Counted from the stretch's first letter, positions 33,750 to 44,435 are shown. The stretch: DNA of 64,000 nucleotides from a virus (IMGVR_UViG_3300001041_000002:1-64000), one strand, 5' to 3'. Numbers and translations are program-made. Notes: generated by a model not told the origin, from the letters alone.

Positions 33750-34010
33750 TTATTTTTTAGATATATTTGAGAACGTATTTCCGTCGCTTGTCATAATATA
33801 ATACTGGGAGTTGTTATACAAAGGCATAATTTTCTCACCATCATTATACACCACTACGCCATAGATATTCTTTAAATCATCATCAGACCATAACTTAGTA
33901 GTCTCAATAAATTCATTACCATTCTTTTCTTTCAAAATGAGAATATAATACTCATCTAGCATAGTATTAACCTCTCCGAAACCACAATCTAATCTTCTTA
34001 AAATAAACAT
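33750..34010 (-). CDS. Hypothetical protein
   Basis: 86 aa ending 'YYIMTSDGNTFSNI'. Confidence 0.55.
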   Translation of the reverse strand: MFILRRLDCGFGEVNTMLDEYYILILKEKNGNEFIETTKLWSDDDLKNIYGVVVYNDGEKIMPLYNNSQYYIMTSDGNTFSNISKK

Positions 34011-34254
34011 TTGTGTATGTATTTATATATCGGCTACTCTATTAGGTTTTCGCCATCCCCTTGTTAAATTAGCACATTTTTTTCTTAGGCTTTGGAGTCG
34101 CCTTCGTTTGTTTCTTTGCCATAATCGTCTTTATTAGTATACATAAATTTTGCAAACTTTAACTCTTGATTTTTTTCAAACTGTTGGCCAGCCTCCCAAT
34201 CTTCTTTTGTAATCCAAACCTTATTCCCGCCAATATCCAATGTTAAATATTCCA

Positions 34255-34863
34255 TTATTTTATGTCTAATTCTTTAAGTAACCTAGTCTTTACAAAAGTA
34301 TCGACAGTCAAATCTTTATTGTCAAATCGAATAACTCTTTTTACATTATGTAGATGAACTAAATTTTCAGTCCTCAACCTATCGTAAATCTTTGCATTGT
34401 AAGAATAGTGTTGTTGTCCATCAATCTCTACAACCACATTATGCTCTGGCAAATAGAAGTCCACTAAATAAAATGAGAATCCAACAAAATATATTTTCTG
34501 ATACTCATACTTAATACCCATCTCAGTCAACAGCAACTTCATCTTTAATTCAGCAGGAGTGGCATTGTTAATATTTTCATTCTGCAGAAACATAGCGTTT
34601 CTAGCTTTATCACAAGCATTAACTCTAAACCTAGCCAGCTCATCATGTGGCTTACTCACAATATTAGCCAAAATAAAATCATAAGCTTCCTTACTAATCC
34701 CCATATTAAGCAGTCCTCGGACTCCATTAGCATTTAACTCTAAGCACGCATCTGGGCCTACTACATAGGGCTTTCTATTCTCTTTCTTTTCAGAGTCTTT
34801 GTAAACTCTAACCTTAACTTTCTTTCTACTCATCTCTCTATAATTTACTTTGTTGATACTCAT
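34255..34863 (-). CDS. DUF559 / Vsr-like PD-(D/E)xK endonuclease
   Basis: 'TPAE...YEYQ...VDFY...VVEIDGQQH...DRLRT...VIRFDN'. Confidence 0.85.
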   Translation of the reverse strand: MSINKVNYREMSRKKVKVRVYKDSEKKENRKPYVVGPDACLELNANGVRGLLNMGISKEAYDFILANIVSKPHDELARFRVNACDKARNAMFLQNENINNATPAELKMKLLLTEMGIKYEYQKIYFVGFSFYLVDFYLPEHNVVVEIDGQQHYSYNAKIYDRLRTENLVHLHNVKRVIRFDNKDLTVDTFVKTRLLKELDIK

Positions 34864-34892
34864 GACAACATCTCGTACGCAAGTTTCCTACC

Positions 34893-35163
34893 GTATCAAA
34901 GAATCGTTACCGAAACTCTATTTTAACATTATGATGCCATTGGCGTCAGCGTAGTGCGATCTTTTGAATTCCCTGCTAGCTACTGTCATCTCCTCTGCCT
35001 CTGATTCTGGGCCGTAGTCCTATTGCAATACCAAATGATTTTACACCATAATGCCAGTTTGTCTCTACCGGGGATAACTTACCTCTATTTAAGGATTACA
35101 ACCCAATGTCTTTTGCCCTACTAGAATTAACGGTCGAGCCTGAACGCGAGAGTCTTTTGATAC
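34893..35163 (-). ncRNA. Candidate ~270-nt structured RNA upstream of the DUF559 nuclease
   Basis: ORF-free and GC-enriched; closed by GUAUCAAAAGA / UCUUUGAUAC; lies between a promoter and the nuclease ATG. Confidence 0.5.
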
Positions 35164-35187
35164 ATCAATAACTCAAGGGAGACGACA

Positions 35188-35219
35188 CAAATATACAACA
35201 TTATTTTATAACCACCAAA
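35188..35219 (-). promoter_or_regulatory. Bacteroidota promoter (-33/-7)
   Basis: TTTG-N20-TATATTTG. Confidence 0.75.
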
Positions 35220-35293
35220 CATTTCACAAACTATTTAATCAATCGCTAAACGACTATAAACATAGTCAATCAACTAAAGATTTAGTTTAAATA

Positions 35294-35539
35294 CTATTTT
35301 TTAAACTTCTTGTCAGCAAAGTAATCTTTATAATCAAAAAAACCAACTAAACACAAAGCCCCATTCATAACCAAGTCAAACCATGTATGATTAACGACAG
35401 TCACTAAATTCAACAACACAGCCAGAACTATAGCCCGTCTGATATTCAACCTGTAACAAACCCACTTGTAAAAACCACTGCCCCGAAACTTTGCAAAAAC
35501 ACCGGAAACCCACAACTTAAACTTTGATAAAATAACCAT
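35294..35539 (-). CDS. Small membrane protein
   Basis: 81 aa with two hydrophobic segments. Confidence 0.5.
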   Translation of the reverse strand: MVILSKFKLWVSGVFAKFRGSGFYKWVCYRLNIRRAIVLAVLLNLVTVVNHTWFDLVMNGALCLVGFFDYKDYFADKKFKK

Positions 35540-35579
35540 AATACATGTATTTACCTATCATACGGGAATAACTATAATA

Positions 35580-36470
35580 AGGTTACATAAATTTTTTGCG
35601 GTGAAAATTTTTCAGAAAAAATATTTTTTTTTGCAAAACTAAAATTATTGAATATCAATGAGTTCACTAACCAACAAGCATAAATCGCGGTGGCTTCGAT
35701 TGAGATTGGGTTCTTCCCCGGGGTCTTTCTCTCTCTGTTTGGTTTGTGGATTCCGTTGGGCGATTTTTCACCTTTACTAACTCTTGGCGTTGATGTTGCA
35801 GTTTCTGCGATGTCATAGCTATATTGTTGCAGCCTCGTTGACTGTATATAGTATTAAAATCCACGCATAGAACCTAACTATCGTGATCTTGTTATAGCCG
35901 TGTCGCTACAGCGTGTTGGGCTTATAATAAACATACTGCGGGCAGAGCGAGACTGCCATCATTAATAACCTTTCAGGCTATATACAGAAGTAGACTATCT
36001 ACAACTGTATCATACAGCAAGCGTTCAGTCCGTAAACTCTGTTTAATCCAAGATCGTGTGGAGGTGCACGTGCGTGAAGCCCAGAGGAAAGTTCGGTCAC
36101 TTCGTAGTTGTATAGCTCAATCCATTATGGTCAACCACTACTAGGCTAGGCAGGATATCAGCCAGATAGATAGATTAGGTTGGCCGTAATGTGTTGATTA
36201 ATTTGCCTCGAGGATGCCGCAGTATTGTGGCGCTATATATGTAGTCCGTCAGCCACCAAGCTTTTGGACAGTTTCACCGCGCGACACACTAGTTCTTTAA
36301 TTAAGACGTAAGTGCTCGCCAGATATATGCAGTTAGTGTAGCGGTGTTTATTAGCTAAGTAATTGAGGCAGAGAGCGTGAGAGGAGAGAACTAACCTTCC
36401 ATCCCCCTTAATCGCTCATATCCTAAATCACAATATTTCCTTACATATTAACAATCGCTAATTAACAATC
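35580..36470. other. Non-coding strand-switch region; possible packaging/terminus or origin region
   Basis: Separates divergent gene blocks; clustered A/T tracts at 35588-35645, CCCCGGGG at 35716-35723, then GC-richer ORF-free DNA. Confidence 0.55.
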
Positions 36471-36483
36471 TAAATTATAAGCT

Positions 36484-36639
36484 ATGGCTAAGATTCTACA
36501 ATTCTACGTGTATGACCGGAAGAATGTCAAGCATGTATACAAGATTAAGGCTGGGAAATATTATTATGATGATAAAGAGATTTCGGCTGATGATTACAAT
36601 GTAGCTCTCGAATGGTTCAATGCCAATCGCAAGAAATAA
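36484..36639 (+). CDS. First plus-strand gene, 51-aa hypothetical
   Basis: MAKILQFYVYDRKNVKHVYKIKAGKYYYDDKEISADDYNVALEWFNANRKK* with an A-rich leader. Confidence 0.65.
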   Translation: MAKILQFYVYDRKNVKHVYKIKAGKYYYDDKEISADDYNVALEWFNANRKK

Positions 36640-36700
36640 AATACTGTCCTAAGCATGACGTTAAAAGGCTCACTAATACTAACAATCTAATCCAATTATC

Positions 36701-36955
36701 ATGATACATAAACTCAACATCAGCCTCAACATTCAAAATGGAGAAAGCAGAAGTAATAATGGAGAACACACTTCGCAAGAAGTAATAAACATACTACTTG
36801 ATTATATAATGGACATAAAAATATGCATGTCTATTGAGGATCAAGAAAACGATGAAAAACAGTTAGCAGTTGATCAAGCTAGAGAATACGCAACCGCCGA
36901 AGAACTTTATATTATTGATCATGGCCAACCTAATCAACCTATCATTAAGTGTTAG
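36701..36955 (+). CDS. Hypothetical protein
   Basis: 84-aa ORF with an A-rich leader. Confidence 0.55.
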   Translation: MIHKLNISLNIQNGESRSNNGEHTSQEVINILLDYIMDIKICMSIEDQENDEKQLAVDQAREYATAEELYIIDHGQPNQPIIKC

Positions 36956-37078
36956 CACGTTTAATTGTACTCATGTTAATAGATCTAATTATTCTAGTGC
37001 AAGGCATGAAAGGATTTTGGCTAGATATAATTGGATTCAACAGTTAATAGTATTTAATCAATTAAAAAGCTTTACACA

Positions 37079-37171
37079 ATGAAAACATTAAAATATGCTG
37101 CAGCAATTGTCATCGGGGCTATCATCGTTGCCGGAGGAGTTTTCTTCGCTGACTGGTTCATGCCCTTGTGA
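37079..37171 (+). CDS. 30-aa single-TM peptide
   Basis: MKTLKYAAAIVIGAIIVAGGVFFADWFMPL*. Confidence 0.55.
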   Translation: MKTLKYAAAIVIGAIIVAGGVFFADWFMPL

Positions 37172-37187
37172 TATTAAAGAGAGCCTC

Positions 37188-37254
37188 AAGGATCGGTACT
37201 ATTACACGCCAACCGAGGTAGTAAGATGTATTTAGTGGCAAACAAGCCGATCTT
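37188..37254 (+). ncRNA. Candidate small structured RNA with pseudoknot
   Basis: GATCGG/CCGATC closing stem, internal TACTA/TAGTA, loop GCCA complementary to downstream TGGC. Confidence 0.4.
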
Positions 37255-37284
37255 ATCAATTAAACTAATTTAACAATTATAAGT

Positions 37285-37437
37285 ATGAGAAAATTAACCT
37301 ATTTAATAACTGGATTAGTATTACTTGGATTTCAAATTGCACATTTAATTCAAGGTAATAATACAGATTCAACGGTTTGTATGGTTGGCGCAATGATGTG
37401 TTTTGCGGAATCAATATCAACAGATAAAGACGAGTAA
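37285..37437 (+). CDS. 50-aa membrane peptide
   Basis: MRKLTYLITGLVLLGFQIAHL... Confidence 0.5.
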   Translation: MRKLTYLITGLVLLGFQIAHLIQGNNTDSTVCMVGAMMCFAESISTDKDE

Positions 37438-37463
37438 ATCTTAATAATTAACAACTATAATCA

Positions 37464-37610
37464 ATGGCACGAAAATTCCACAGTGTTGTCAGACTGTCAA
37501 ACAGGACGGCAATAGAATTCGATGTATTCGCTTCGAGTAAAATTGAAGCAAACAAAAGTATTGTAAGCCATTTCAATAATGGCAAGATTCAATCCATTAA
37601 AACCTATTAA
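37464..37610 (+). CDS. 48-aa hypothetical protein
   Basis: MARKFHSVVRLSNRTAIEFDVFASSKIEA... Confidence 0.55.
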   Translation: MARKFHSVVRLSNRTAIEFDVFASSKIEANKSIVSHFNNGKIQSIKTY

Positions 37611-37612
37611 TC

Positions 37613-37765
37613 ATGACAAGTAAATTAAAATTATCCGTCATAATAGGGTTATTTCTCTCTGTATGTAGTATAATTTCAATTTACCATGAGTCTTATGTGG
37701 CAGCTTTCGTGCTGTTAATTATTCTTGTAGTATCAGTCGACACAATTTACAGAAGAATCAAATGA
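37613..37765 (+). CDS. 50-aa two-TM peptide
   Basis: MTSKLKLSVIIGLFLSVCSII...AAFVLLIILVV. Confidence 0.5.
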   Translation: MTSKLKLSVIIGLFLSVCSIISIYHESYVAAFVLLIILVVSVDTIYRRIK

Positions 37766-37935
37766 CCCTATTAATCATCGTTATCAGTTGGATTGCCTTG
37801 GGTTGTTTCAATGTGTTCAAGCTCTATCAATCAGAGAAATGTGCTGACATAATTGAAACACTCTTTGCAATGCTATTAGCGCCTTTTTACACTATTTTAG
37901 CGTTTATAATTATCTTCATCATTAAAAAGTGGTAG
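37762..37935 (+). CDS. 57-aa two-TM peptide
   Basis: MTLLIIVISWIALGCF...LFAMLLAPFYTILAFIIIFII; ATGA overlap with the previous ORF. Confidence 0.5.
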   Translation: MTLLIIVISWIALGCFNVFKLYQSEKCADIIETLFAMLLAPFYTILAFIIIFIIKKW

Positions 37936-37971
37936 TTTATAAGTATTAACAAAAGCAAATAAATAAACAAA

Positions 37972-38442
37972 ATGAAAGCAAAATTAAGTAATTATTATCG
38001 TAAGCCAGGTGGAACTATGGTTTTCGTGTACATCGTTATTGGTACAGACGTTGAATTGGCAAATTTCAAAGCCGCTAAAGAAAAAGAAGTTACCGGCAGT
38101 GGTAAATCAGCTTATGTTGAAAACGAGGCCCGACAACCACTATTCTTCAGTACTCGTCCATTAAGCACCAATCGTGCAGAGTTAATACCATTGACCATCA
38201 CTACCACTGGTAGGGTTGTTGCCGACGATTTAACCAAAGTGTTGACGCAAGAGGCCAAGCTTGATGATTATATCATGCAAGAAAAAGCCAAAATTATGGC
38301 TAAAGCCGCATTGTCCGGTGGGTTGAACAACTTAACCGATCTTACTTCAACTCGTCCGGTTGCCACAGAGCAAGAGGTTGAAGAGGTATTAAACGGCGCA
38401 ATTGACACTCCGGTTGAGGTTGCTGACAATGTGCCATCATAA
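37972..38442 (+). CDS. Hypothetical protein with acidic C-terminal tail
   Basis: 156-aa ORF with an A-rich leader. Confidence 0.65.
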   Translation: MKAKLSNYYRKPGGTMVFVYIVIGTDVELANFKAAKEKEVTGSGKSAYVENEARQPLFFSTRPLSTNRAELIPLTITTTGRVVADDLTKVLTQEAKLDDYIMQEKAKIMAKAALSGGLNNLTDLTSTRPVATEQEVEEVLNGAIDTPVEVADNVPS

Positions 38443-38450
38443 GAAGTAAA

Positions 38451-38503
38451 ATAATATGGGTGCCGCAAAGGATTAAATGGACAGCAAATCCAGCCCATAT
38501 TAT
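38451..38503 (+). ncRNA. Stem-closed element just upstream of tRNA-Ile
   Basis: ATAATATGGG/CCCATATTAT enclosing GGATT...AATCC. Confidence 0.45.
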
Positions 38504-38509
38504 GATCAT

Positions 38510-38583
38510 TGCCAATTAACTCAGTTGGTCAGAGTTCTAAGCTTATACCTTAGCGGTCACTGGTTCAAGTCCAGTATTGGCAA
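38510..38583 (+). tRNA. tRNA-Ile (anticodon UAU)
   Basis: Cloverleaf: TGCCAAT/ATTGGCA acceptor, ACTC/GAGT D-arm, CTAAG-CTTATAC-CTTAG anticodon arm, ACTGG-TTCAAGT-CCAGT T-arm; CCA not encoded. Confidence 0.9.
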
Positions 38584-38611
38584 CAAATAATAACATTTTA
38601 AAACAATAACT

Positions 38612-38695
38612 ATGAATACAGAATTAATTGCATTTTTAATAGGTGTTGTTATAGGCATATTTATAGCAATATTATGGATATCGGAAAAAAAATAA
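38612..38695 (+). CDS. 27-aa single-TM peptide
   Basis: MNTELIAFLIGVVIGIFIAILWISEKK*. Confidence 0.5.
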   Translation: MNTELIAFLIGVVIGIFIAILWISEKK

Positions 38696-38707
38696 CACTC
38701 CAGCGGC

Positions 38708-38965
38708 ATGAAAGACTATGAAAAGAAAATTAATGATTTTTCATTTAGCTATGCATCATCATTTAAAGAAAATAATGATCAAAGATTAGTTAGAGATGCA
38801 GTAAGGGCTGGGGCCAAGTCAGAAGCAGCTAAAGAATTTCATCAGCAAGGTATGCATACTGAAGAAAATATGTATTTGAATATGCAATACTACATGGAAT
38901 ATTGTGAAAGAAATGGATATACAACTCCAATGGATTGGATTAAAAATCATAAACATTTTAAATGA
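38708..38965 (+). CDS. Hypothetical protein
   Basis: 85-aa ORF. Confidence 0.55.
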   Translation: MKDYEKKINDFSFSYASSFKENNDQRLVRDAVRAGAKSEAAKEFHQQGMHTEENMYLNMQYYMEYCERNGYTTPMDWIKNHKHFK

Positions 38966-39087
38966 AAAAACTCTTCACCATAATAATTATGACATTGATA
39001 TTATCATCATGTGCTAGTTTTAATAAAGCGGCTAAATACCCTAAAGGCACACAAGAAAACACGGATTGGAGGATTAATAAGTTATGA
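38962..39087 (+). CDS. 41-aa putative lipoprotein
   Basis: MKKLFTIIIMTLILSS|C lipobox. Confidence 0.55.
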   Translation: MKKLFTIIIMTLILSSCASFNKAAKYPKGTQENTDWRINKL

Positions 39088-39288
39088 GTAAATTCAATCC
39101 ATATTGCGGAGAAGAATATGAATATCACTCAATATCAGATGATGAATGGTGAAGTTCGTATTTAGAATGGTGTGATGAAAATCTTAATGATGATTAACCA
39201 TGAAATCATATACTTGCGCTATATGTAAATGTACATATACGGGGATAGTTTGTCCTAATTGCGGATCAATAGTAACATCAGAATAATT

Positions 39289-39936
39289 ATGAATAGAAAA
39301 CATAAAGTAATACTGCTTTCAGACAATAGAAATGCAAGATATAAAGACATTGTAACATCTCCTAGATACAAGAATAAAATACAGCTATTTGGGACATTTG
39401 AAAATAGTTATGAAAACGAATGTAAAACTCAACATCTTTACATTATTTCTGATAAAGAAATTAAAGAAGGTAATTGGTTTGTTTCAAGCAAAACAATACA
39501 TAAATGTACATACATTATTGAAGATACTAACGAAATAATGTGTAATATATGTGATGGAACTGGTTTTATTCAACTTGGAATAAAAACGAATAAATGTCAT
39601 AAAATTATAGCCTCGACCAACACCTCACTTAACCTTCCACAACTTTCTCAATCATTTATTACTAAATATATTGAAGAATATAACAAAAGTAATATTATTA
39701 CCGAAGTTATGGTTGAATATGATGAAGAACCAACTATTGATGGTGATTCTGACAAGTACGCCGAGTTACATATCAACTCTAAAGACAATACTATAATCAT
39801 TAAAGATGCCAAGACTAATTGGAGTAAAGACGAAATAATTGTTTTAATTAACAAGTTTGCAGAAAGATTTATGCCACACACAGACAAGGTGTTTGTTAAA
39901 GAAGCAATAAATAATTGGATTAATAGAAATACATAA
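39289..39936 (+). CDS. Conserved Bacteroidota-phage hypothetical protein
   Basis: 'QHLYIISDKEIKEG.W...KIIAST...LPQ.SQSFI.KY...VMVEY'; likely start at MNRK. Confidence 0.6.
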   Translation: MNRKHKVILLSDNRNARYKDIVTSPRYKNKIQLFGTFENSYENECKTQHLYIISDKEIKEGNWFVSSKTIHKCTYIIEDTNEIMCNICDGTGFIQLGIKTNKCHKIIASTNTSLNLPQLSQSFITKYIEEYNKSNIITEVMVEYDEEPTIDGDSDKYAELHINSKDNTIIIKDAKTNWSKDEIIVLINKFAERFMPHTDKVFVKEAINNWINRNT

Positions 39937-39939
39937 CAT

Positions 39940-40048
39940 AACTATCAGGAGCCTAGATTTTGAATTTTTACGGTTAGTTTTAGGTTTTTTAAGGTTTGTT
40001 CATAGATGTCAATAAGTACTTCATGTGTTTTATTGGCTCCTGGTAGTT
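39940..40048 (+). ncRNA. Stem-closed RNA with an 81-nt U-rich loop
   Basis: 14-bp AACTATCAGGAGCC/GGCTCCTGGTAGTT stem. Confidence 0.55.
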
Positions 40049-40060
40049 TTTAAAAACATA

Positions 40061-40232
40061 AGACATAAATATCTGCATAAGACTCAAATGCGAGTTGAAA
40101 GGAGTTGCATAATGATTAGAATTGATCACTATTTGAGGCTGCAAATTTTATGCGCAGAATCCTGCTCTAAGTTGCAAATTAACAGGTTGGCTTAAGTAAC
40201 CATCTAAAATTCTCGCTTAGATATTTATGTTT
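40061..40232 (+). ncRNA. Structured RNA, motif copy 1
   Basis: 14-bp terminal stem; GCAT-AAGACTCAA-ATGC hairpin; GGTT...AGTAACC hairpin. Confidence 0.55.
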
Positions 40233-40242
40233 TTAATAATAC

Positions 40243-40345
40243 AACAACTAATACTACTTAGTCTGTTTTTATTGAAGCTATCAATCTAAACTTAAAGTAC
40301 TGTCTGGTAACTCAGTGATCCTGTATAGTCAGACTATTAGTTGTT
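40243..40345 (+). ncRNA. Stem-closed RNA element
   Basis: AACAACTAA..TAGTCTG / CAGACTA-TTAGTTGTT. Confidence 0.45.
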
Positions 40346-40353
40346 TATAAGAT

Positions 40354-40470
40354 AATAACAATAACACTGTTTACGTATGGTTCGATTCCACGGGGCTCAA
40401 AATAGTGAAATAGTAATAAAGTAACTATAAAAGGGCAGCGCAATAGCTAAGAGGATAGCTTATTGTTATT
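40354..40470 (+). ncRNA. Stem-closed element containing a T-loop (tRNA-like fragment)
   Basis: AATAACAATAA/TTATTGTTATT stem; TGG-TTCGATT-CCA at 40378-40390. Confidence 0.45.
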
Positions 40471-40635
40471 TTTAAAGATAATAACGCTCGAAATCACGAG
40501 TGTTTCTGTAATAAAGATATAAACCGGTCAGCATCTAGTATGGATTTATCCAGAAGTTTCAATCCCGTCAGATATTGTATAAAAGCAGTTTTGGAGTGAT
40601 TAAATGACTTAATTTAACAATTAAAATAAAACATC

Positions 40636-40908
40636 ATGAGAGTAAATCAAGAATTAAGAATTCGTTGGAATCACAGTAGAAGTACTCGTGAAACAGTGTG
40701 TCAGATTTTAGATAACGATGATAATGTCGTTGCAGCCGGTATTGCAAGAGCGTTCGTTAAAGACCCATTTTGTAAGGCCAAAGGCAGAAATGCTTCATTA
40801 ACTAAAGCCTTAAAAGCTGAGAATGCTCATGGAGTAAAAAAGCTTAATAAAGAGGCCAGAACTCAGGTGTGGGCTGTTTGCCGTGAAAACCGTGTAAAAC
40901 TATACTAA
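40636..40908 (+). CDS. Conserved phage hypothetical protein
   Basis: 'T.C......G.A.....D.F.K.KGR..SL..AL' pattern. Confidence 0.65.
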   Translation: MRVNQELRIRWNHSRSTRETVCQILDNDDNVVAAGIARAFVKDPFCKAKGRNASLTKALKAENAHGVKKLNKEARTQVWAVCRENRVKLY

Positions 40909-41167
40909 TGTCACAGAGAATTCAAAACATATTATCAGCTCCAGCCAAGGTGCCAGTAATGATAAAGAAAGGTCGCAAAATGGTTCAGTTGACTAAGACT
41001 ACTAAGAGCGGTCAGGTTAAGAACGTGTGGGAAGATAACCCAGACAGTAAAATCGTTAAACAAGTTAAACATTGGAAAGTCTAATCATGTACACAAAAGA
41101 AGAATTAACTAAAATTATAGATGCCAGGATCAGAGATGATCAGAGTATTTTATACACAGAATAATTA

Positions 41168-41287
41168 AATAAATATAGCAAGTAGGATTAGACTCAAATC
41201 CAATACACATCGCTGCACAACAACACTGAAAAGTGGCGGATCGGTTGAGTAACCACCGTAAACCTATGTGTTCTTGCTATATTTATT
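41168..41287 (+). ncRNA. Structured RNA, motif copy 2
   Basis: 15-bp terminal stem; GGAT-TAGACTCAA-ATCC; ACACAT/ATGTGT; GGTT-GAGT-AACC. Confidence 0.6.
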
Positions 41288-41427
41288 AATATAAAATAAT
41301 TACAATTGCCAGAGAGTTGGAATGGCTGAAGCCCGCTAGTACCGAAACGGGGCTGTAACAATAGAGCTAGCTTGAGAGATTGAGCTAGCTTGTTTTAAAA
41401 ACATTAGCAAATTATAAAATAATAAAA

Positions 41428-41616
41428 ATGGGATCAAACAGTAACAGATCTTTCTCAAAAGAAGAGAAAATTGGATATTATGCCCAAAAAATTTCATCAA
41501 CAAGAGATACATCAAGCTCATCTTTTCAATTGTCTACTGGGGCTAAAATTCGTGGAGAAATGGGTGTTAAAAAAGGCAATGCATTCATAGCTGCAATAAA
41601 AAATGCAAGTAGATAA
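41428..41616 (+). CDS. Small basic protein
   Basis: 62-aa ORF with an A-rich leader. Confidence 0.5.
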   Translation: MGSNSNRSFSKEEKIGYYAQKISSTRDTSSSSFQLSTGAKIRGEMGVKKGNAFIAAIKNASR

Positions 41617-41648
41617 AACAATCATTAACAAATTATAAAACAAAACAA

Positions 41649-42128
41649 ATGAAAAAACTAATTATTGGGTTATTATTTCTCACAATATCTTAAGTAGGAT
41701 ATACAGAGAATAAAGTGGACGATGCAATTACCGCTGTAGATAACACTACAGAGATAGTGAATAAATCCACAAAAGAAGTGAATGCAACAGTTGTTTATTT
41801 CACAGAGAAGCTTGAAGAACTCGCTAAGTCACTAAAAGTGCCAGCAGAACATGTTTATCAAATATTAGTTAAACAACAAATAGTGCAAGCATATACATCA
41901 TTATTTGCTTTCTTTGGATTATTATTATTTTGTTTAATTATAACCTATTTTTTTATAAAAGCCGATGGATTTGAAGATGATTCTTTTATAAATATTAGTG
42001 GATTTATATTAATATTAATATCAGGGATATTGGTATTAACTTGTGGAGCCAATTTTATTTTTAATGGATTTAGCGGTATTATCAACCCAGAATATGGTGC
42101 TATTAAAGAGATAATGTCGTTGTTTTAA
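41649..42128 (+). pseudogene. Membrane protein whose signal peptide contains an in-frame TAA
   Basis: MKKLIIGLLFLTIS*VGYTENKVDD... is in frame with ORF 41715..42128 (two TM segments, 'INPEYGAIKEI'). Confidence 0.5.
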
Positions 42129-42136
42129 TAATAACA

Positions 42137-42327
42137 TAAAATACCCGATGAAGATAAACAATAGGGAAGATCGGTGAATTAACACCCATACGGCGGAGGA
42201 TACGAACAAACGCAACCTATAGTCATGCTAAGATGACGATGTTTATTGTAATACAGCCAAGGAGATAGTTAAAACTTCCCATTATTGTCAATTAAGCTGT
42301 TCCACTTAGAAATGGACGGGTATTTTA
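42137..42327 (+). ncRNA. Multi-stem ~190-nt RNA directly upstream of tRNA-Tyr
   Basis: TAAAATACCCG/CGGGTATTTTA; GGGAAG/CTTCCC; hairpins with complementary CTAAG and CTTAG loops. Confidence 0.55.
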
Positions 42328-42334
42328 AATAAAT

Positions 42335-42415
42335 GGATAGACTGGTAAGTGGGTGAAATCAGCAGACTGTAAATCTGTCGCTTCGGCTATGGGCGTTCAA
42401 ATCGCTCTCTATCCA
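42335..42415 (+). tRNA. tRNA-Tyr (GUA)
   Basis: GGATAGA/TCTATCC acceptor, GCAGA-CTGTAAA-TCTGT anticodon arm, long variable arm, GGGCG-TTCAAAT-CGCTC T-arm. Confidence 0.9.
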
Positions 42416-42438
42416 CAAATCAAATTTTATGTAATATA

Positions 42439-42855
42439 ATGATATTAAAAACGAAAAACCCAGCATATATGTGTTGGAAGATGATGAAAAATAGATGCTC
42501 TAATCCAAATGATCCAAAATTTAAAAACCATGGAGGCAGAGGAATAACTGTATGTAAAGAGTGGGTTGAATCATTTGATAGATTTATCCAAGACATAGGA
42601 GAAAGACCCGAAGGATATACTATAGACAGAATTGACAATAACTTAGGATATTGCAAGGAAAATTGTAAATGGTCATCATATACAGAACAAAACAATAATA
42701 AAAACAACAATATACGATTAACATATAACGGTGAATGTAAAACTGTTTCTGAGTGGGCAAAACACTTAAATATGAATGTACAAACACTATTTTGGAGGAT
42801 AAATAATAATAAAACGGTCTCTGAAATATTATTTAATCATACCCAGAAACAATAA
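42439..42855 (+). CDS. HNH-like homing endonuclease
   Basis: 'GGRGITVCKEW...TIDRIDNNLGY..ENCKW' followed by an HTH-like tail. Confidence 0.8.
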   Translation: MILKTKNPAYMCWKMMKNRCSNPNDPKFKNHGGRGITVCKEWVESFDRFIQDIGERPEGYTIDRIDNNLGYCKENCKWSSYTEQNNNKNNNIRLTYNGECKTVSEWAKHLNMNVQTLFWRINNNKTVSEILFNHTQKQ

Positions 42856-42879
42856 TAATATTAAAATATACAATTTTTG

Positions 42880-43152
42880 TTGACGCTTATCGAAAGACCG
42901 AGTGAGACTCGATGGCAGTAATCGACTCCTCCACTTACGCACACCAATTGAACGCTAACCGGTCGCGTTAGAACCGTTCGATGGCAACTATTGAGTTGTA
43001 AAATAAGGGGGAGAAATAGTATTGATCAGCGGAATGATTAAATAAGAAGAGAAAATTGTAGCTCTCAAAGGGCAAAACTGTTGAACTTTACCGTGAAGTT
43101 GCTATTGCAGCTTAATTAGGTACGTTTCCTAGGGTGTACGAAAACACCCTAA
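42880..43152 (+). ncRNA. ssrA: Circularly permuted (two-piece) tmRNA
   Basis: Acceptor piece GAC-TCGAT-GGCAGTA-ATCGA-CTCCTCCA (ends 42933) precedes the coding piece GGGGGAG...ATTGAT (starts 43007); G3-U70 pair; tag GKTVELYREVAIAA* at 43071-43115. Outer boundaries are approximate. Confidence 0.88.
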
Positions 43153-43170
43153 TCTTTGAATTCATATATT

Positions 43171-43557
43171 ATGAAATATACAGAATCCGAAATCAGTCTG
43201 ACTGTGCAAACAGAGGGCTGTCTTGCTTTACGAGGCAAGTACGAATCACACCCAAAACTTGATGATCAGGGTAATCCAGTGTTCTCAATTGAGCGTAATG
43301 CTAAAAATGAGATCGAAAGAAACCCAGTATTTCAAGTAAAAACAGTTCAATTACCCAAGTATCACAACTGTTCTATCGGAACCAAACTGAACAATCATTT
43401 TGTGCAGTGGGCTTTAAGCAATGAAAGTAAGCCGAAGACTTTGTCTGCCGGTTATTGGAATAAGATGTCTGATCGTCAGAGGCTACATTTTCACGTGACC
43501 AAATATGTGTCAGATTTGTATGGTGATGCAAAATTCAATTACACAATCTTGGAATAA
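43171..43557 (+). CDS. Hypothetical protein
   Basis: Likely start MKYTESEISL. Confidence 0.6.
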   Translation: MKYTESEISLTVQTEGCLALRGKYESHPKLDDQGNPVFSIERNAKNEIERNPVFQVKTVQLPKYHNCSIGTKLNNHFVQWALSNESKPKTLSAGYWNKMSDRQRLHFHVTKYVSDLYGDAKFNYTILE

Positions 43558-43558
43558 T

Positions 43559-43774
43559 ATGAATCGAATTTGGAAAACTAAGGTTGAAATTCAGGTTGAT
43601 AAAATTGTTTATCCAATAAACAGCCTTTTAATAGCAGAAGATGTTGAAGTTTTTTATTTATTACATAAAGATGATCAGCTCGAAGATGTAACTTATATTG
43701 ATCTTCAGGATTTTTCTGATGTAATGGATGAACTTGGTATTGACGGAATTGACTTAATCTATTCTAATGAATAA
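43559..43774 (+). CDS. Small acidic hypothetical protein
   Basis: Likely start MNRIWK within ORF 43505..43774. Confidence 0.5.
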   Translation: MNRIWKTKVEIQVDKIVYPINSLLIAEDVEVFYLLHKDDQLEDVTYIDLQDFSDVMDELGIDGIDLIYSNE

Positions 43775-44435
43775 AAATTACACTCATGATTTTAGCTCGG
43801 CTTCGATTAAACACTTAATTGAGGCTGAGTTTTATCAAAAAGCTGGGGAGATGCTTGGCAATGCTGCATCAACAGTCACAATAGTTACAGGGCCGGATTA
43901 TCAAAGACATCTTGACAATGTTAATAAATATATTAAATGTAATAAAACTCGTATTTGTGAGATTAATACTGATATATTTATACACATATATACAGGGTGT
44001 AAAGATAAACCTAAAGTATCTGTTGTTAATAATTCAGTTGAGTTGTATGGCTCCAGATTCATTGATTGTGATCTAACATGCACTTCTGATCTAGCAGTAA
44101 TTAGGAATACTTTGTTTAAACAAATTGATGTCCAAGCTGGATTTTCATGTGTAAATAAGGCTTTTATATTAAGCATTGGACTCAGGGGTTCTGAAAAAAT
44201 GAAATACACTGAAATATTTAATAATATAATTGGATTACTTGGTGCATCTATACAGTCGCCAACTCCGCTATCTCAAAAGCAAATCATTAAATGCGATTTT
44301 GCCAACACGAAAAGTCCTGTTTATCAAAATAGACTTAAATTTCAGATGCTTAAGGGTAGGATTAAAGAATATATTTGTTATTCTTATAATGCTGGAGGAG
44401 GCCCAATGTTAACATGTTTAATTATTTACAAATAA
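43767..44435 (+). CDS. Hypothetical protein, possible Rossmann-fold methyltransferase-like
   Basis: 'IVTGP...ICEIN...RFIDCDLTC' is only a loose match. Confidence 0.35.
   Translation: MNKNYTHDFSSASIKHLIEAEFYQKAGEMLGNAASTVTIVTGPDYQRHLDNVNKYIKCNKTRICEINTDIFIHIYTGCKDKPKVSVVNNSVELYGSRFIDCDLTCTSDLAVIRNTLFKQIDVQAGFSCVNKAFILSIGLRGSEKMKYTEIFNNIIGLLGASIQSPTPLSQKQIIKCDFANTKSPVYQNRLKFQMLKGRIKEYICYSYNAGGGPMLTCLIIYK

What the first reader, a model, noticed from the sequence alone, without database searches (positions are those of the whole stretch)
37188..43152. Dense cluster of stem-closed small RNAs around the tRNAs and tmRNA
Seen: at least eight intergenic elements (37188, 38451, 39940, 40061, 40243, 40354, 41168, 42137), each closed by a terminal helix (6 bp in the first, 10-15 bp and mostly AT-rich in the rest) with different structured interiors. 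Four are back to back in the ORF-free 39940-40470 block. They are not terminators (large interiors) and not CRISPR (no shared repeat). Inference: a cassette of phage sRNAs released from one early transcript by processing at the closing stems, acting with the tRNAs and tmRNA on translation or defence.
Basis: partly seen in the sequence, partly recalled or inferred. Interest (0 to 1): 0.75.

Follow-up and report, generated by a model that had tools for sequence, protein, structure and literature searches.

The report
Stem-closed RNA genes, crAss-like phage
The start of the early region of this uncultured crAss-like phage carries, next to two tRNA genes and a two-piece tmRNA gene, a string of unrelated folded non-coding RNA modules; five are kept folded by compensating mutations, one belongs to a widespread uncatalogued RNA family, and what they do is untested.

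Summary
The window is part of a 101-kb circular crAss-like phage contig from groundwater. Between 38.4 and 43.1 kb there are 8 perfect long-range inverted repeats of at least 11 bp, against 0.5-0.7 expected. The two tRNAs are real. The tmRNA is real but is a permuted, two-piece form.

Four listed elements (E1, E3, E5, E8) and one unlisted element (X2, 41290-41400) have homologues in related phages with compensatory base changes. Their order differs between phages. E2, E4, E6 and E7 have no homologue in the data I could reach, so they rest on folding alone.

E8 (42137-42327) belongs to a family of at least 19 members in uncultured phage contigs. It folds as a four-way junction. In 16 aligned members, 17 of 28 pairs change on both sides, and a loop-loop kissing contact also covaries. 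The family is absent from Rfam 15, from GenBank phages by blastn, and from 185,579 prokaryote genomes by exact pattern.

The block lies just downstream of a homologue of Cellulophaga phage phi14:2 g004. In phi14:2, abundant and stable early RNAs of unknown function were reported at that position.

This scan has already reported the same kind of array on other crAss-like genomes.

The parts
37189..37254 (+). E1: conserved irregular hairpin. Outer helix AGGAUCGG/CCGAUCUU, inner helix UACUAU/AUAGU, conserved internal loop GGCAAnCAAG, hypervariable tip.
   Evidence: Fold. Five homologues (window, L091, L092, L093, L094) with 2 compensatory pairs and invariant G-U pairs that fit the plus strand only. 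Minus-strand z-score is +0.23 against -1.45 for the plus strand.
38451..38503 (+). E2: 53-nt hairpin that ends 6 nt before tRNA-Ile.
   Evidence: Fold (z -1.7). No homologue found. Untested.
38510..38584 (+). tRNA-Ile (anticodon tat)
   Evidence: ARAGORN. Rfam 65.7 bits.
39259..39936 (+). Protein gene of the phrog_15656 family, homologous to phi14:2 g004. It marks the conserved position of the non-coding block.
   Evidence: PHROG hit at 5.5e-16. tblastn to NC_021806 2359-2898: 29% identity, E 7e-8.
39940..40048 (+). E3: 14-bp closing stem around an 81-nt U/G-rich interior, followed by UUUUUAAAAA.
   Evidence: Fold z -3.5. The homologue in G001 (L091:4988-5092) has 2 compensatory and 1 one-sided change in the stem.
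40060..40233 (+). E4: 174-nt multi-hairpin module. Its 3' half (40151-40209) resembles the freshwater-1 motif.
   Evidence: Fold z -2.2. RF02979 scores 29.8 bits against a gathering score of 72, E 3e-4. No homologue found. Untested.
40243..40345 (+). E5: 103-nt module with an 11-bp closing stem and two inner arms.
   Evidence: Fold z -2.1. 83% identical copy in G001, there placed next to E1. Three compensatory pairs in an inner hairpin.
40354..40470 (+). E6: 117-nt module with an 11-bp closing stem. The interior contains a T-loop-like GGUUCGAUUCC.
   Evidence: Closing stem. Fold z -1.1 with a poorly defined interior. No clear homologue. Untested.
41168..41287 (+). E7: 120-nt module with a 15-bp perfect closing stem. 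Hairpin loops ACUCAA and UUGAGU are complementary and may kiss.
   Evidence: Fold z -4.6. CM R2 finds no homologue in 642 kb of related loci. Loop complementarity was read from the sequence.
41290..41400 (+).
   Evidence: Homologues in L091 and L092 at 71-74% identity. 4 compensatory pairs. Fold z -3.0.
42137..42327 (+). E8: member of a widespread four-way-junction RNA family. It has P1 (the closing stem), P2 (GAUAAACA/UGUUUAUU), a P3 hairpin with loop GCUAAG, a variable P4 domain, and a P5 hairpin with loop CUUAGAAA. The P3 and P5 loops kiss.
   Evidence: Pattern scan. Alignment A3 and CM R1. 19 family members. Pair counts. Loop covariation.
42335..42416 (+). tRNA-Tyr (anticodon gta), starting 7 nt after E8
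   Evidence: ARAGORN. Rfam 45.2 bits.
42439..42855 (+). HNH homing-type endonuclease gene between tRNA-Tyr and the tmRNA
   Evidence: phrog_3377 at 1.8e-48.
42873..43115 (+). Circularly permuted (two-piece) tmRNA gene with tag GKTVELYREVAIAA*. A conserved hairpin follows, up to about 43152.
   Evidence: RF04321 scores 52.4 bits against a gathering score of 47. Translation. In the relative L091, ARAGORN calls a permuted tmRNA with tag GKTINLFREVAIAA* and RF04321 scores 70.3 bits.

Best explanation
The block is an island of separate genes for compact, stable, non-coding RNAs at the head of the early (replication) arm of a crAss-like phage. tRNA genes, a tmRNA gene and small protein genes are mixed in among them.

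Each module folds on its own, and a long terminal helix brings its 5' and 3' ends together. Inferred: as in tRNA, tmRNA, 6S RNA or rRNA precursors, that helix defines and protects the mature ends. The ends could be made in three ways: RNase III-type cuts in the stem, cuts in the AU-rich linkers, or termination at the stem plus U-run.

The modules behave as independent cassettes. Related phages carry overlapping but reshuffled sets.

E8 is the clearest case. It is a four-way-junction RNA of about 200 nt with a near-invariant junction core and a covarying loop-loop contact, which implies a precise 3-D fold that binds or acts on something.

Most likely role (inferred, not shown): trans-acting RNAs made early and kept through infection. 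They would engage host RNA-handling or translation machinery, or act as decoys for it, alongside the phage's own tRNAs and tmRNA.

Shown: the structures, their conservation, the strand, the cassette-like reshuffling, and synteny with the phi14:2 early RNA region.

Inferred: expression, the positions of the ends, and function.
For: - Enrichment of long-range helices: 8 observed against about 0.5-0.7 expected.
- Compensatory changes in E1, E3, E5 and X2.
- E8 family, 16 aligned members: 97% of cells paired, 17 of 28 pairs changed on both sides, all 11 P1 pairs covary, 0 of 500 shuffles reach this, and slid controls collapse to 34-56% paired.
- The P3 and P5 loops stay complementary in at least five forms: CUAAG:CUUAG, CCAAG:CUUGG, UUCAG:CUGAA, GCUAA:UUAGC, CUAG:CUAG.
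- Invariant G-U pairs in E1, E8 P2 and X2 fit the plus strand only.
- The order differs in relative G001: E5 lies beside E1, and E3 beside E8.
- In L101, E8 fills a slot in a tRNA array, with the flanking tRNAs within 4 nt on each side.
- The non-coding block starts 4 nt after a g004 homologue. In phi14:2 the g004-g005 and g005-g006 junctions are reported as transcribed above most genes, early and persistently (bioRxiv 10.1101/2020.03.07.982082). That region also holds a tmRNA (RF00023, 46 bits against a gathering score of 47, E 3e-15).
- No host-type -7 box on the plus strand between 33762 and 44370.
Against: - There are no RNA data for this phage or its relatives, so expression, ends and stability are all unproven.
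- E2, E4, E6 and E7 have no homologue. The folds of E6 and E2 are not better than many shuffles.
- E1 and E2 are small hairpins that could equally be cis-acting mRNA signals.
- None of these RNAs is alignable to the phi14:2 non-coding region (R1, R2), so the link to the measured RNAs is by position only.
- Nothing points to a particular target or partner.
Confidence: 0.6

Rival explanations
1. The elements act in cis on the early transcripts. They would be RNase III sites, terminators or insulators, or 5'/3' stabilising structures that punctuate a polycistronic early RNA, as the R1-R5 sites do in the phage T7 early region. On this view the RNAs have no function of their own.
For: - E1 and E2 are simple irregular hairpins lying between small genes.
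- The closing stems of E3, E4, E6, E8 and X2 are followed by U4-5 and then an A-run (sequence).
- 3' flanks in the E8 family show the same pattern.
- Each module sits in a gene boundary.
Against: - E8 keeps a near-invariant junction core and a covarying kissing loop across phages whose terminase large subunit (TerL) is only about 57-60% identical. A cleavage or termination signal does not need this.
- Four modules lie back to back with no gene between them (39940-40470).
- The modules move independently of the neighbouring genes.
- The consensus terminator scan finds none at these sites.
Confidence: 0.2
2. The modules are tRNA-derived or tRNA-mimicking RNAs. They would be processed by RNase P and RNase Z like tRNAs, and would serve as decoys or substrates for enzymes that act on tRNA, such as host anticodon nucleases or modification and repair enzymes.
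For: - The E8 outline is cloverleaf-like: four helices, with the loops of the first and last arms touching like the D and T loops.
- E8 abuts tRNA genes in the window (7 nt) and in L101 (within 4 nt on both sides).
- T-loop-like GGUUCGAUUCC occurs in E6, in the E8 copy of L103, and in the relatives L091 and L092, where the stems covary (read by eye).
- A g004-family gene lies two genes downstream of an RtcB RNA ligase gene in Cellulophaga phage Calle_1.
Against: - The Rfam tRNA model and ARAGORN do not score any module.
- There is no CCA or discriminator-like 3' end.
- The closing stems are 10-15 bp, not 7 bp.
- 17 of 19 E8 members have no tRNA within 600 nt.
- The resemblance is in outline only.
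Confidence: 0.12
3. The inverted repeats are DNA-level features. They could be the ends of miniature mobile elements, recombination cassettes, or hairpin or cruciform signals for replication or for the virion RNA polymerase.
For: - The modules are reshuffled between related phages as units bounded by their inverted repeats.
- An HNH endonuclease gene lies in the block.
- No early promoter motif is known for crAss-like virion RNA polymerases.
Against: - Each module has its own arm sequence and there is no repeated terminal repeat.
- The arms change by compensation rather than being conserved.
- G-U pairs make the helices strand-specific.
- Internal helices and loop-loop contacts covary, which has no meaning for duplex DNA.
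- Loops of 80-170 nt are unfavourable for cruciform extrusion (established knowledge).
Confidence: 0.05
4. The helices are chance inverted repeats in AT-rich intergenic DNA.
For: - The stems are AT-rich.
- E2 and E6 do not fold better than 5-16% of shuffles.
- In 51 related early-region loci, 10-bp inverted repeats are also common inside ORF-covered DNA (1.2 per kb).
Against: - 0 of 300 shuffles reach the observed count.
- Five elements are conserved with compensatory changes.
Confidence: 0.03

Closest known systems
Abundant early 'long non-coding RNAs' of Cellulophaga crAss-like phage phi14:2 (g004-g005 and g005-g006 junctions; Drobysheva et al., bioRxiv 10.1101/2020.03.07.982082)
   Same: - Same phage order (Crassvirales).
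- Same position: directly downstream of the g004-family gene at the head of the rightward early arm.
- The region also holds a tmRNA.
- Function unknown.
- The paper reports high, early and persistent transcription.
   Different: - No sequence or CM similarity between the phi14:2 region and E1-E8.
- The phi14:2 tmRNA is one-piece; here it is permuted.
- The paper does not resolve modules or structures.
Phage T4 stable RNAs rnaC and rnaD (species 1 and 2) in the tRNA gene cluster
   Same: Small structured phage RNAs of unknown function, encoded among tRNA genes, with paired termini. In T4 they are matured from the same precursors as the tRNAs (established knowledge, not tested here).
   Different: - No sequence relation.
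- There are many more modules here and they are more diverse.
- Most E8 members are not next to tRNAs.
- The host phylum and the transcription system (virion RNA polymerase) differ.
Large ornate phage-associated RNAs GOLLD and ROOL (Rfam)
   Same: Elaborate, covariation-supported RNAs of unknown function, carried by phages and often near tRNA genes. Kissing-loop contacts are important in their solved structures (knowledge; bioRxiv 10.1101/2024.12.08.627333 appeared in the results but was not read).
   Different: - E8 is about 160-260 nt, against about 580-800 nt.
- No Rfam hit to either family, even at E 10.
- Nothing here indicates multimer formation.
RNase III processing stems (T7 early-region sites R1-R5; rRNA precursor stalks)
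   Same: Long-range or hairpin duplexes of about one helical turn or more that bracket functional RNAs in a polycistronic transcript. E1 and E2 resemble T7-type sites in size.
   Different: - Cleavage is untested.
- The stems here are perfect 10-15 bp AU-rich helices, many followed by U-runs.
- The interiors are conserved structured RNAs, not mRNAs or rRNA.
freshwater-1 RNA motif (Rfam RF02979)
   Same: The 3' half of E4 (40151-40209) matches the motif's conserved CCUGCUCU...UGCA...AACAGG hairpin, its second hairpin and the UAAAA tail over the full model length.
   Different: - It scores 29.8 bits against a gathering score of 72.
- The motif is not found in 50 related phage records.
- E4 is three times longer than the motif.

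Membership tests
tmRNA, circularly permuted (Rfam RF04321) | Score at or above the family's gathering threshold over the full model | tested here: met
   52.4 bits against 47, model positions 1-213, at 42873-43115. It appears only with the sensitive filters and was not listed in the default gathering scan.
tmRNA, circularly permuted (Rfam RF04321) | Tag reading frame ending in a hydrophobic ..AA tail and a stop codon | tested here: met
   43071-43115 translates to GKTVELYREVAIAA*. In relative L091, ARAGORN reports tag GKTINLFREVAIAA*.
tmRNA, circularly permuted (Rfam RF04321) | The 3' tRNA-like half (T arm, acceptor 3' strand) lies upstream of the 5' half, and the pieces are joined by pairing | tested here: met
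   The CM alignment places the T arm and the CUCCUCCAC strand at about 42910-42935, and the GGGGGAG strand at about 43007.
tRNA | Cloverleaf scored by ARAGORN or Rfam RF00005 | tested here: met
   Met for 38510-38584 and 42335-42416 only. None of E1-E8 scores as tRNA.
freshwater-1 RNA (RF02979), for E4 | Score at or above the gathering threshold (72 bits) | tested here: not met
   29.8 bits, E 3e-4. No hits in 50 related records. This is a resemblance only.
Any catalogued RNA family, including self-cleaving ribozymes, riboswitches, 6S RNA, Y RNA-like, GOLLD and ROOL, for E1-E8 | Rfam 15 covariance-model match | tested here: not met
   cmscan of 36800-43400 at E up to 10 lists only the tRNAs, the tmRNA, the weak freshwater-1 hit and chance-level hits.
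CRISPR array | Direct repeats shared by successive units | tested here: not met
   No multi-copy repeat family among the modules.
Intrinsic terminators | Short G+C-rich hairpin with a 3-8 nt loop, followed by a U-run | tested here: not met
   The consensus scan finds no site at any module. Only the 3' hairpin of X2, and the closing stems with their U-runs, resemble terminators loosely.
E8 RNA family (defined here by CM R1) | P1, P2, P3 and P5 helices with the conserved junctions CUGAAG and UGUAAGAUA, and complementary P3 and P5 loops | tested here: met
   Window 42137-42327 scores 157.5 bits, but it is one of the seed sequences. Independent members score 43-124 bits.
phi14:2-type early non-coding RNAs | Location just downstream of the g004-family gene in the early arm | tested here: met
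   The g004 homologue ends at 39936 and the ORF-free block starts at 39940.
phi14:2-type early non-coding RNAs | High, early, persistent transcription | not testable with these tools
   No RNA run holds this sequence.
T4 rnaC/rnaD-type stable RNAs | Co-transcription with tRNAs and maturation by tRNA-processing enzymes | not testable with these tools
   Adjacency only: E8 lies 7 nt before tRNA-Tyr and E2 lies 6 nt before tRNA-Ile. In L101, E8 sits between two tRNAs.

The most novel reading that the evidence does not exclude
The E8 family is a new class of functional RNA with a biochemical activity of its own: a ribozyme, a specific ligand or protein trap, or a true tRNA mimic that enters a tRNA-handling pathway. 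More broadly, crAss-like phages would run an RNA-based host-takeover programme through a changeable toolkit of such modules. The near-invariant junction strands and the covarying kissing loop are the kind of constraint seen in catalytic or ligand-binding RNAs.
Probability: 0.2. Interest if true: 0.85.

Novelty: new variant of a known kind. Interest (0 to 1): 0.6.

Why it matters
crAss-like phages are among the most abundant phages known. Their early transcription by an injected RNA polymerase is poorly understood, and the abundant early RNAs seen in phi14:2 have no assigned function.

This window shows that the equivalent region is not one long RNA. It is a set of separate, exchangeable, precisely folded modules. 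One family (E8) has strong enough comparative support to be tested directly, for example by structure probing, pull-downs, expression in a Bacteroidota host, or cryo-EM.

The finding also adds a permuted tmRNA in a phage whose relatives and gene content point to a Bacteroidota host. Relatives such as phi14:2 carry one-piece tmRNAs.

The novelty is limited in three ways. The general phenomenon has a published precedent. This scan has already reported it on several other crAss-like genomes. And the function remains unknown.

Tried and rejected
- **RNA expression:** no RNA holder listed. All holders are DNA runs from groundwater metagenomes, probably the source sample.
- **Close relatives through neighbouring proteins:** the 90-aa and 156-aa proteins gave no relatives in viral contigs. 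The g004 homologue in metagenome contigs gave only relatives at 42% identity or less. E2, E4, E6 and E7 could therefore not be tested for covariation.
- **blastn and nhmmer of all elements against about 1.9 Mb of related loci:** only E8 reaches beyond the closest clade.
- **CM of E7 (R2):** no hit apart from itself, and not E4. The idea that E4 and E7 are paralogues rests only on two short shared motifs (AGACUCAA loop, GGUU..AGUAACC hairpin), and I do not adopt it.
- **freshwater-1 (RF02979) in 50 related records:** nothing.
- **E8 in prokaryote genomes:** two exact-pattern scans gave 0 hits.
- **E8 in GenBank phages:** blastn gave no match. R1 on phi14:2, phi4:1, Calle_1, DAC19 and DAC16 gave no match.
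- **Hammerhead-like reading of CUGAAGA...GAAA in E8:** rejected. The order and number of helices do not fit, and Rfam ribozyme models do not score.
- **Density of 10-bp inverted repeats in 51 g004 loci:** this did not separate ORF-free DNA from ORF-covered DNA (1.5 against 1.2 per kb), so it is not used as evidence that the arrays are general.
- **Minus-strand folds of single elements:** not decisive for strand in E5 and E6.

Full report
**What the window is**

The window is bases 1-64000 of a 101,419-bp contig whose ends overlap by 83 bp, so it assembles as a circle. The major head, portal and large terminase proteins match the crAss-type PHROG families. The terminase large subunit (TerL) is about 44% identical to those of cr85_1, IAS virus and crAss001, and 57-91% identical to those of many uncultured IMG/VR contigs.

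GC skew and gene direction switch near 36 kb. Virion genes run leftward. Rightward come the region of interest and then the helicase and primase genes. The DNA is held by groundwater metagenome runs only.

**Check of the observation**

All eight closing helices exist at the stated coordinates. Counting perfect inverted repeats of at least 11 bp that enclose 30-260 nt gives these figures:
- 8 in 38.4-43.1 kb.
- 0.68 expected from the rest of the genome (Poisson P about 6e-7).
- Mean 0.48 in 300 dinucleotide shuffles, and none reaches 8.
- This is the densest such window in the genome.

The modules share no repeat, so the block is not CRISPR. The consensus terminator scan finds nothing at the modules.

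ARAGORN and Rfam confirm tRNA-Ile(tat) and tRNA-Tyr(gta). ARAGORN misses the tmRNA here. Rfam's permuted-tmRNA model scores 52.4 bits against a gathering score of 47 at 42873-43115. The tag reads GKTVELYREVAIAA*. The homologue in a relative is called a permuted tmRNA by ARAGORN and scores 70.3 bits.

E1 and E2 are small irregular hairpins rather than modules with large interiors. One more conserved element, X2 at 41290-41400, was overlooked.

**Comparative evidence in the closest clade**

Whole-record BLAST against 54 terminase relatives found homologues of the non-coding elements only in the closest clade: G001, G002, G003 and G005, whose TerL is 70-75% identical. The one exception was the E8 core.

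| Element | Sequences | Result |
|---|---|---|
| E1 | 5 | 2 compensatory pairs, invariant G-U pairs, conserved internal loop, hypervariable tip |
| E3 | 2 | 2 compensatory changes and 1 one-sided change in the 13-14 bp stem; the U/G-rich interior drifts |
| E5 | 2 | 83% identity; 3 compensatory pairs in an inner hairpin |
| X2 | 3 | 4 compensatory pairs, plus a terminator-like 3' hairpin |

The order is not conserved. In G001, E5 lies directly upstream of E1, and E3 lies directly upstream of E8. G001 and G003 also carry other stem-closed or T-loop-bearing elements that this phage lacks. So the modules behave as independent cassettes.

E2, E4, E6 and E7 have no detectable homologue by blastn, by nhmmer, or (for E7) by a covariance model (CM). 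A metagenome scan for close relatives found none. These four rest on single-sequence folding only. That support is good for E7 (z -4.6), moderate for E4, and weak for E2 and E6.

**The E8 family**

A 33-nt core of E8 is 91-94% identical in phages whose terminases are only about 59% identical. An exact-pattern scan of IMG/VR gave 7 loci. Trimmed from stem to stem, they align with three conserved blocks. Each sequence folds on its own to the same plan:
- P1, the closing stem.
- P2 (GAUAAACA/UGUUUAUU), which carries a variable arm and the P3 hairpin (RUCAU-GCUAAG-AUGAY).
- P4, a variable domain.
- P5, a hairpin (UCCA-CUUAGAAA-UGGA) that abuts the 3' strand of P1.

On the 7 seed sequences every cell pairs, and 8 pairs change on both sides.

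The CM R1 then found more members:
- A second subtype, tandem to the first copy in G021.
- Further members near the g004-family gene in many contigs. These include contigs of 143-172 kb that are not crAss-sized.
- 19 members in all.

On 16 aligned members:
- 97% of cells pair.
- 17 of 28 pairs change on both sides, including all 11 pairs of P1.
- No shuffle reaches this.
- Slid controls fall to 34-56% paired.
- Caveat: this alignment was fitted to the model.

The loops of P3 and P5 are complementary and change together: CUAAG:CUUAG, CCAAG:CUUGG, UUCAG:CUGAA, GCUAA:UUAGC and CUAG:CUAG. This supports a kissing contact that folds a four-way junction into a compact body.

The junction strands (CUGAAG, UGUAAGAUA, AUAUU) are nearly invariant.

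Rfam 15 has no match, even at E 10. Neither exact pattern occurs in 185,579 prokaryote species genomes. GenBank phages give no blastn hit. Five cultured Bacteroidota phages give no R1 hit.

**Context and likely production**

The gene just upstream of the ORF-free block (39259-39936, phrog_15656) is a homologue of phi14:2 g004. For phi14:2, the paper states that the g004-g005 and g005-g006 junctions are transcribed rightward above the level of most genes. These RNAs are present from the first time point, do not decline, and have unknown functions. The paper also states that early transcripts made by the virion RNA polymerase have no common upstream motif.

That phi14:2 region contains a one-piece tmRNA. 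No sequence there is alignable to E1-E8.

In the window, the plus strand lacks the Bacteroidota -7 box (TAnnTTTG) from 33762 to 44370, while the late arm has many. This fits early transcription by the phage polymerase.

How the ends are made is open:
- E8 lies 7 nt before tRNA-Tyr. In L101 it sits between two tRNA genes with 4 nt or less on each side, so tRNA processing alone would release it there.
- However, 17 of 19 family members have no tRNA within 600 nt.
- Most P1 3' strands run into U4-8 followed by an A-run. E3, E4, E6 and X2 do the same. Termination at the closing stem, or cuts in the AU-rich linkers, are therefore equally possible.

**Interpretation**

The best reading (confidence about 0.6) is an island of separate genes for stable, compact, trans-acting RNAs. 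Their terminal helices define and protect the ends. They are produced early, alongside the phage's tRNAs and tmRNA.

The structures, strand, conservation, cassette behaviour and synteny are shown. Expression, end positions and function are inferred.

The rival readings, in order of weight:
- Purely cis-acting processing or termination signals. This is likeliest for E1 and E2.
- tRNA-derived mimics.
- DNA-level repeats.
- Chance.

The last two are contradicted by strand-specific G-U pairs, compensatory changes and the shuffle test.

**Relation to earlier notes of this scan**

Word search of the scan's notes shows that follow-up agents have already reported arrays of stem-closed RNA modules in the early regions of other crAss-like genomes. 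They named the same closest precedent (phi14:2), and one note describes a 'new pseudoknotted RNA' found only in such phages. I reached the structure and the phi14:2 link independently before reading them. They add generality but are not independent evidence. No look-alike stretch of this region is indexed from another genome.

**Verdict**

This is a real and fairly rich example of a recently noticed but uncharacterised feature of crAss-like phages. E8 is a well-supported, uncatalogued RNA family that is worth experimental work.

Noticed in passing
window 42873-43152: The phage tmRNA is circularly permuted (two-piece). phi14:2 (L100:4031-4502) and other relatives (L097, L141, L151) carry one-piece tmRNAs, so the permutation appears to have arisen within this phage lineage. 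The RF01849 (alphaproteobacterial tmRNA) model also gives a partial hit of 43.4 bits.
   Followed up: partly
window 37255-37282, 40599-40626, 41399-41430, 41620-41651: A repeated leader, about AATTTAACAAnTATAAAA...ATG, precedes several small ORFs of the early arm. It could be a translation-start leader or an early promoter element.
   Followed up: no
L091:5095-5200 (minus strand) and L092:6540-6660 (minus strand): Relatives G001 and G003 share an element that ends in a perfect T-arm-like hairpin (GUUGG-UUCGAUU-CCAAC / GUUCG-UUCGAUU-CGAAC, with covarying stems) followed by an acceptor-like strand. ARAGORN and Rfam call no tRNA there. It may be a tRNA-like RNA or a degenerate tRNA.
   Followed up: no
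L092:6100-6190 (minus strand): Directly after tRNA-Cys, G003 has its own stem-closed module (AACCGCUAUC ... GAUAGCGGUU) that this window lacks. This is further evidence that each phage has a partly different module set.
   Followed up: no
L091:3810-3890 (minus strand): Upstream of the G001 tmRNA lies a tRNA-shaped sequence with an oversized 14-nt anticodon loop (possibly an intron). ARAGORN folds it into its tmRNA call.
   Followed up: no
L193 (Cellulophaga phage Calle_1, NC_062744 49463-52430): The g004-family gene lies two genes downstream of an annotated RtcB tRNA-splicing ligase. The g004 family also occurs in 145-kb Cellulophaga and 178-kb Bacteroides phages, which fits a Bacteroidota host for this phage.
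   Followed up: no
window 39940-40048 and L091:4988-5092: The E3 interior is U/G-rich and largely unpaired. In G001 it holds two copies of AGAGUUUUAGnGGUUAA. It could be a single-strand binding platform for a protein or for A-rich mRNA leaders.
   Followed up: no
window 35870-36480: About 600 bp at the switch between the leftward and rightward arms have almost no ORFs. This is a candidate origin or promoter region.
   Followed up: no
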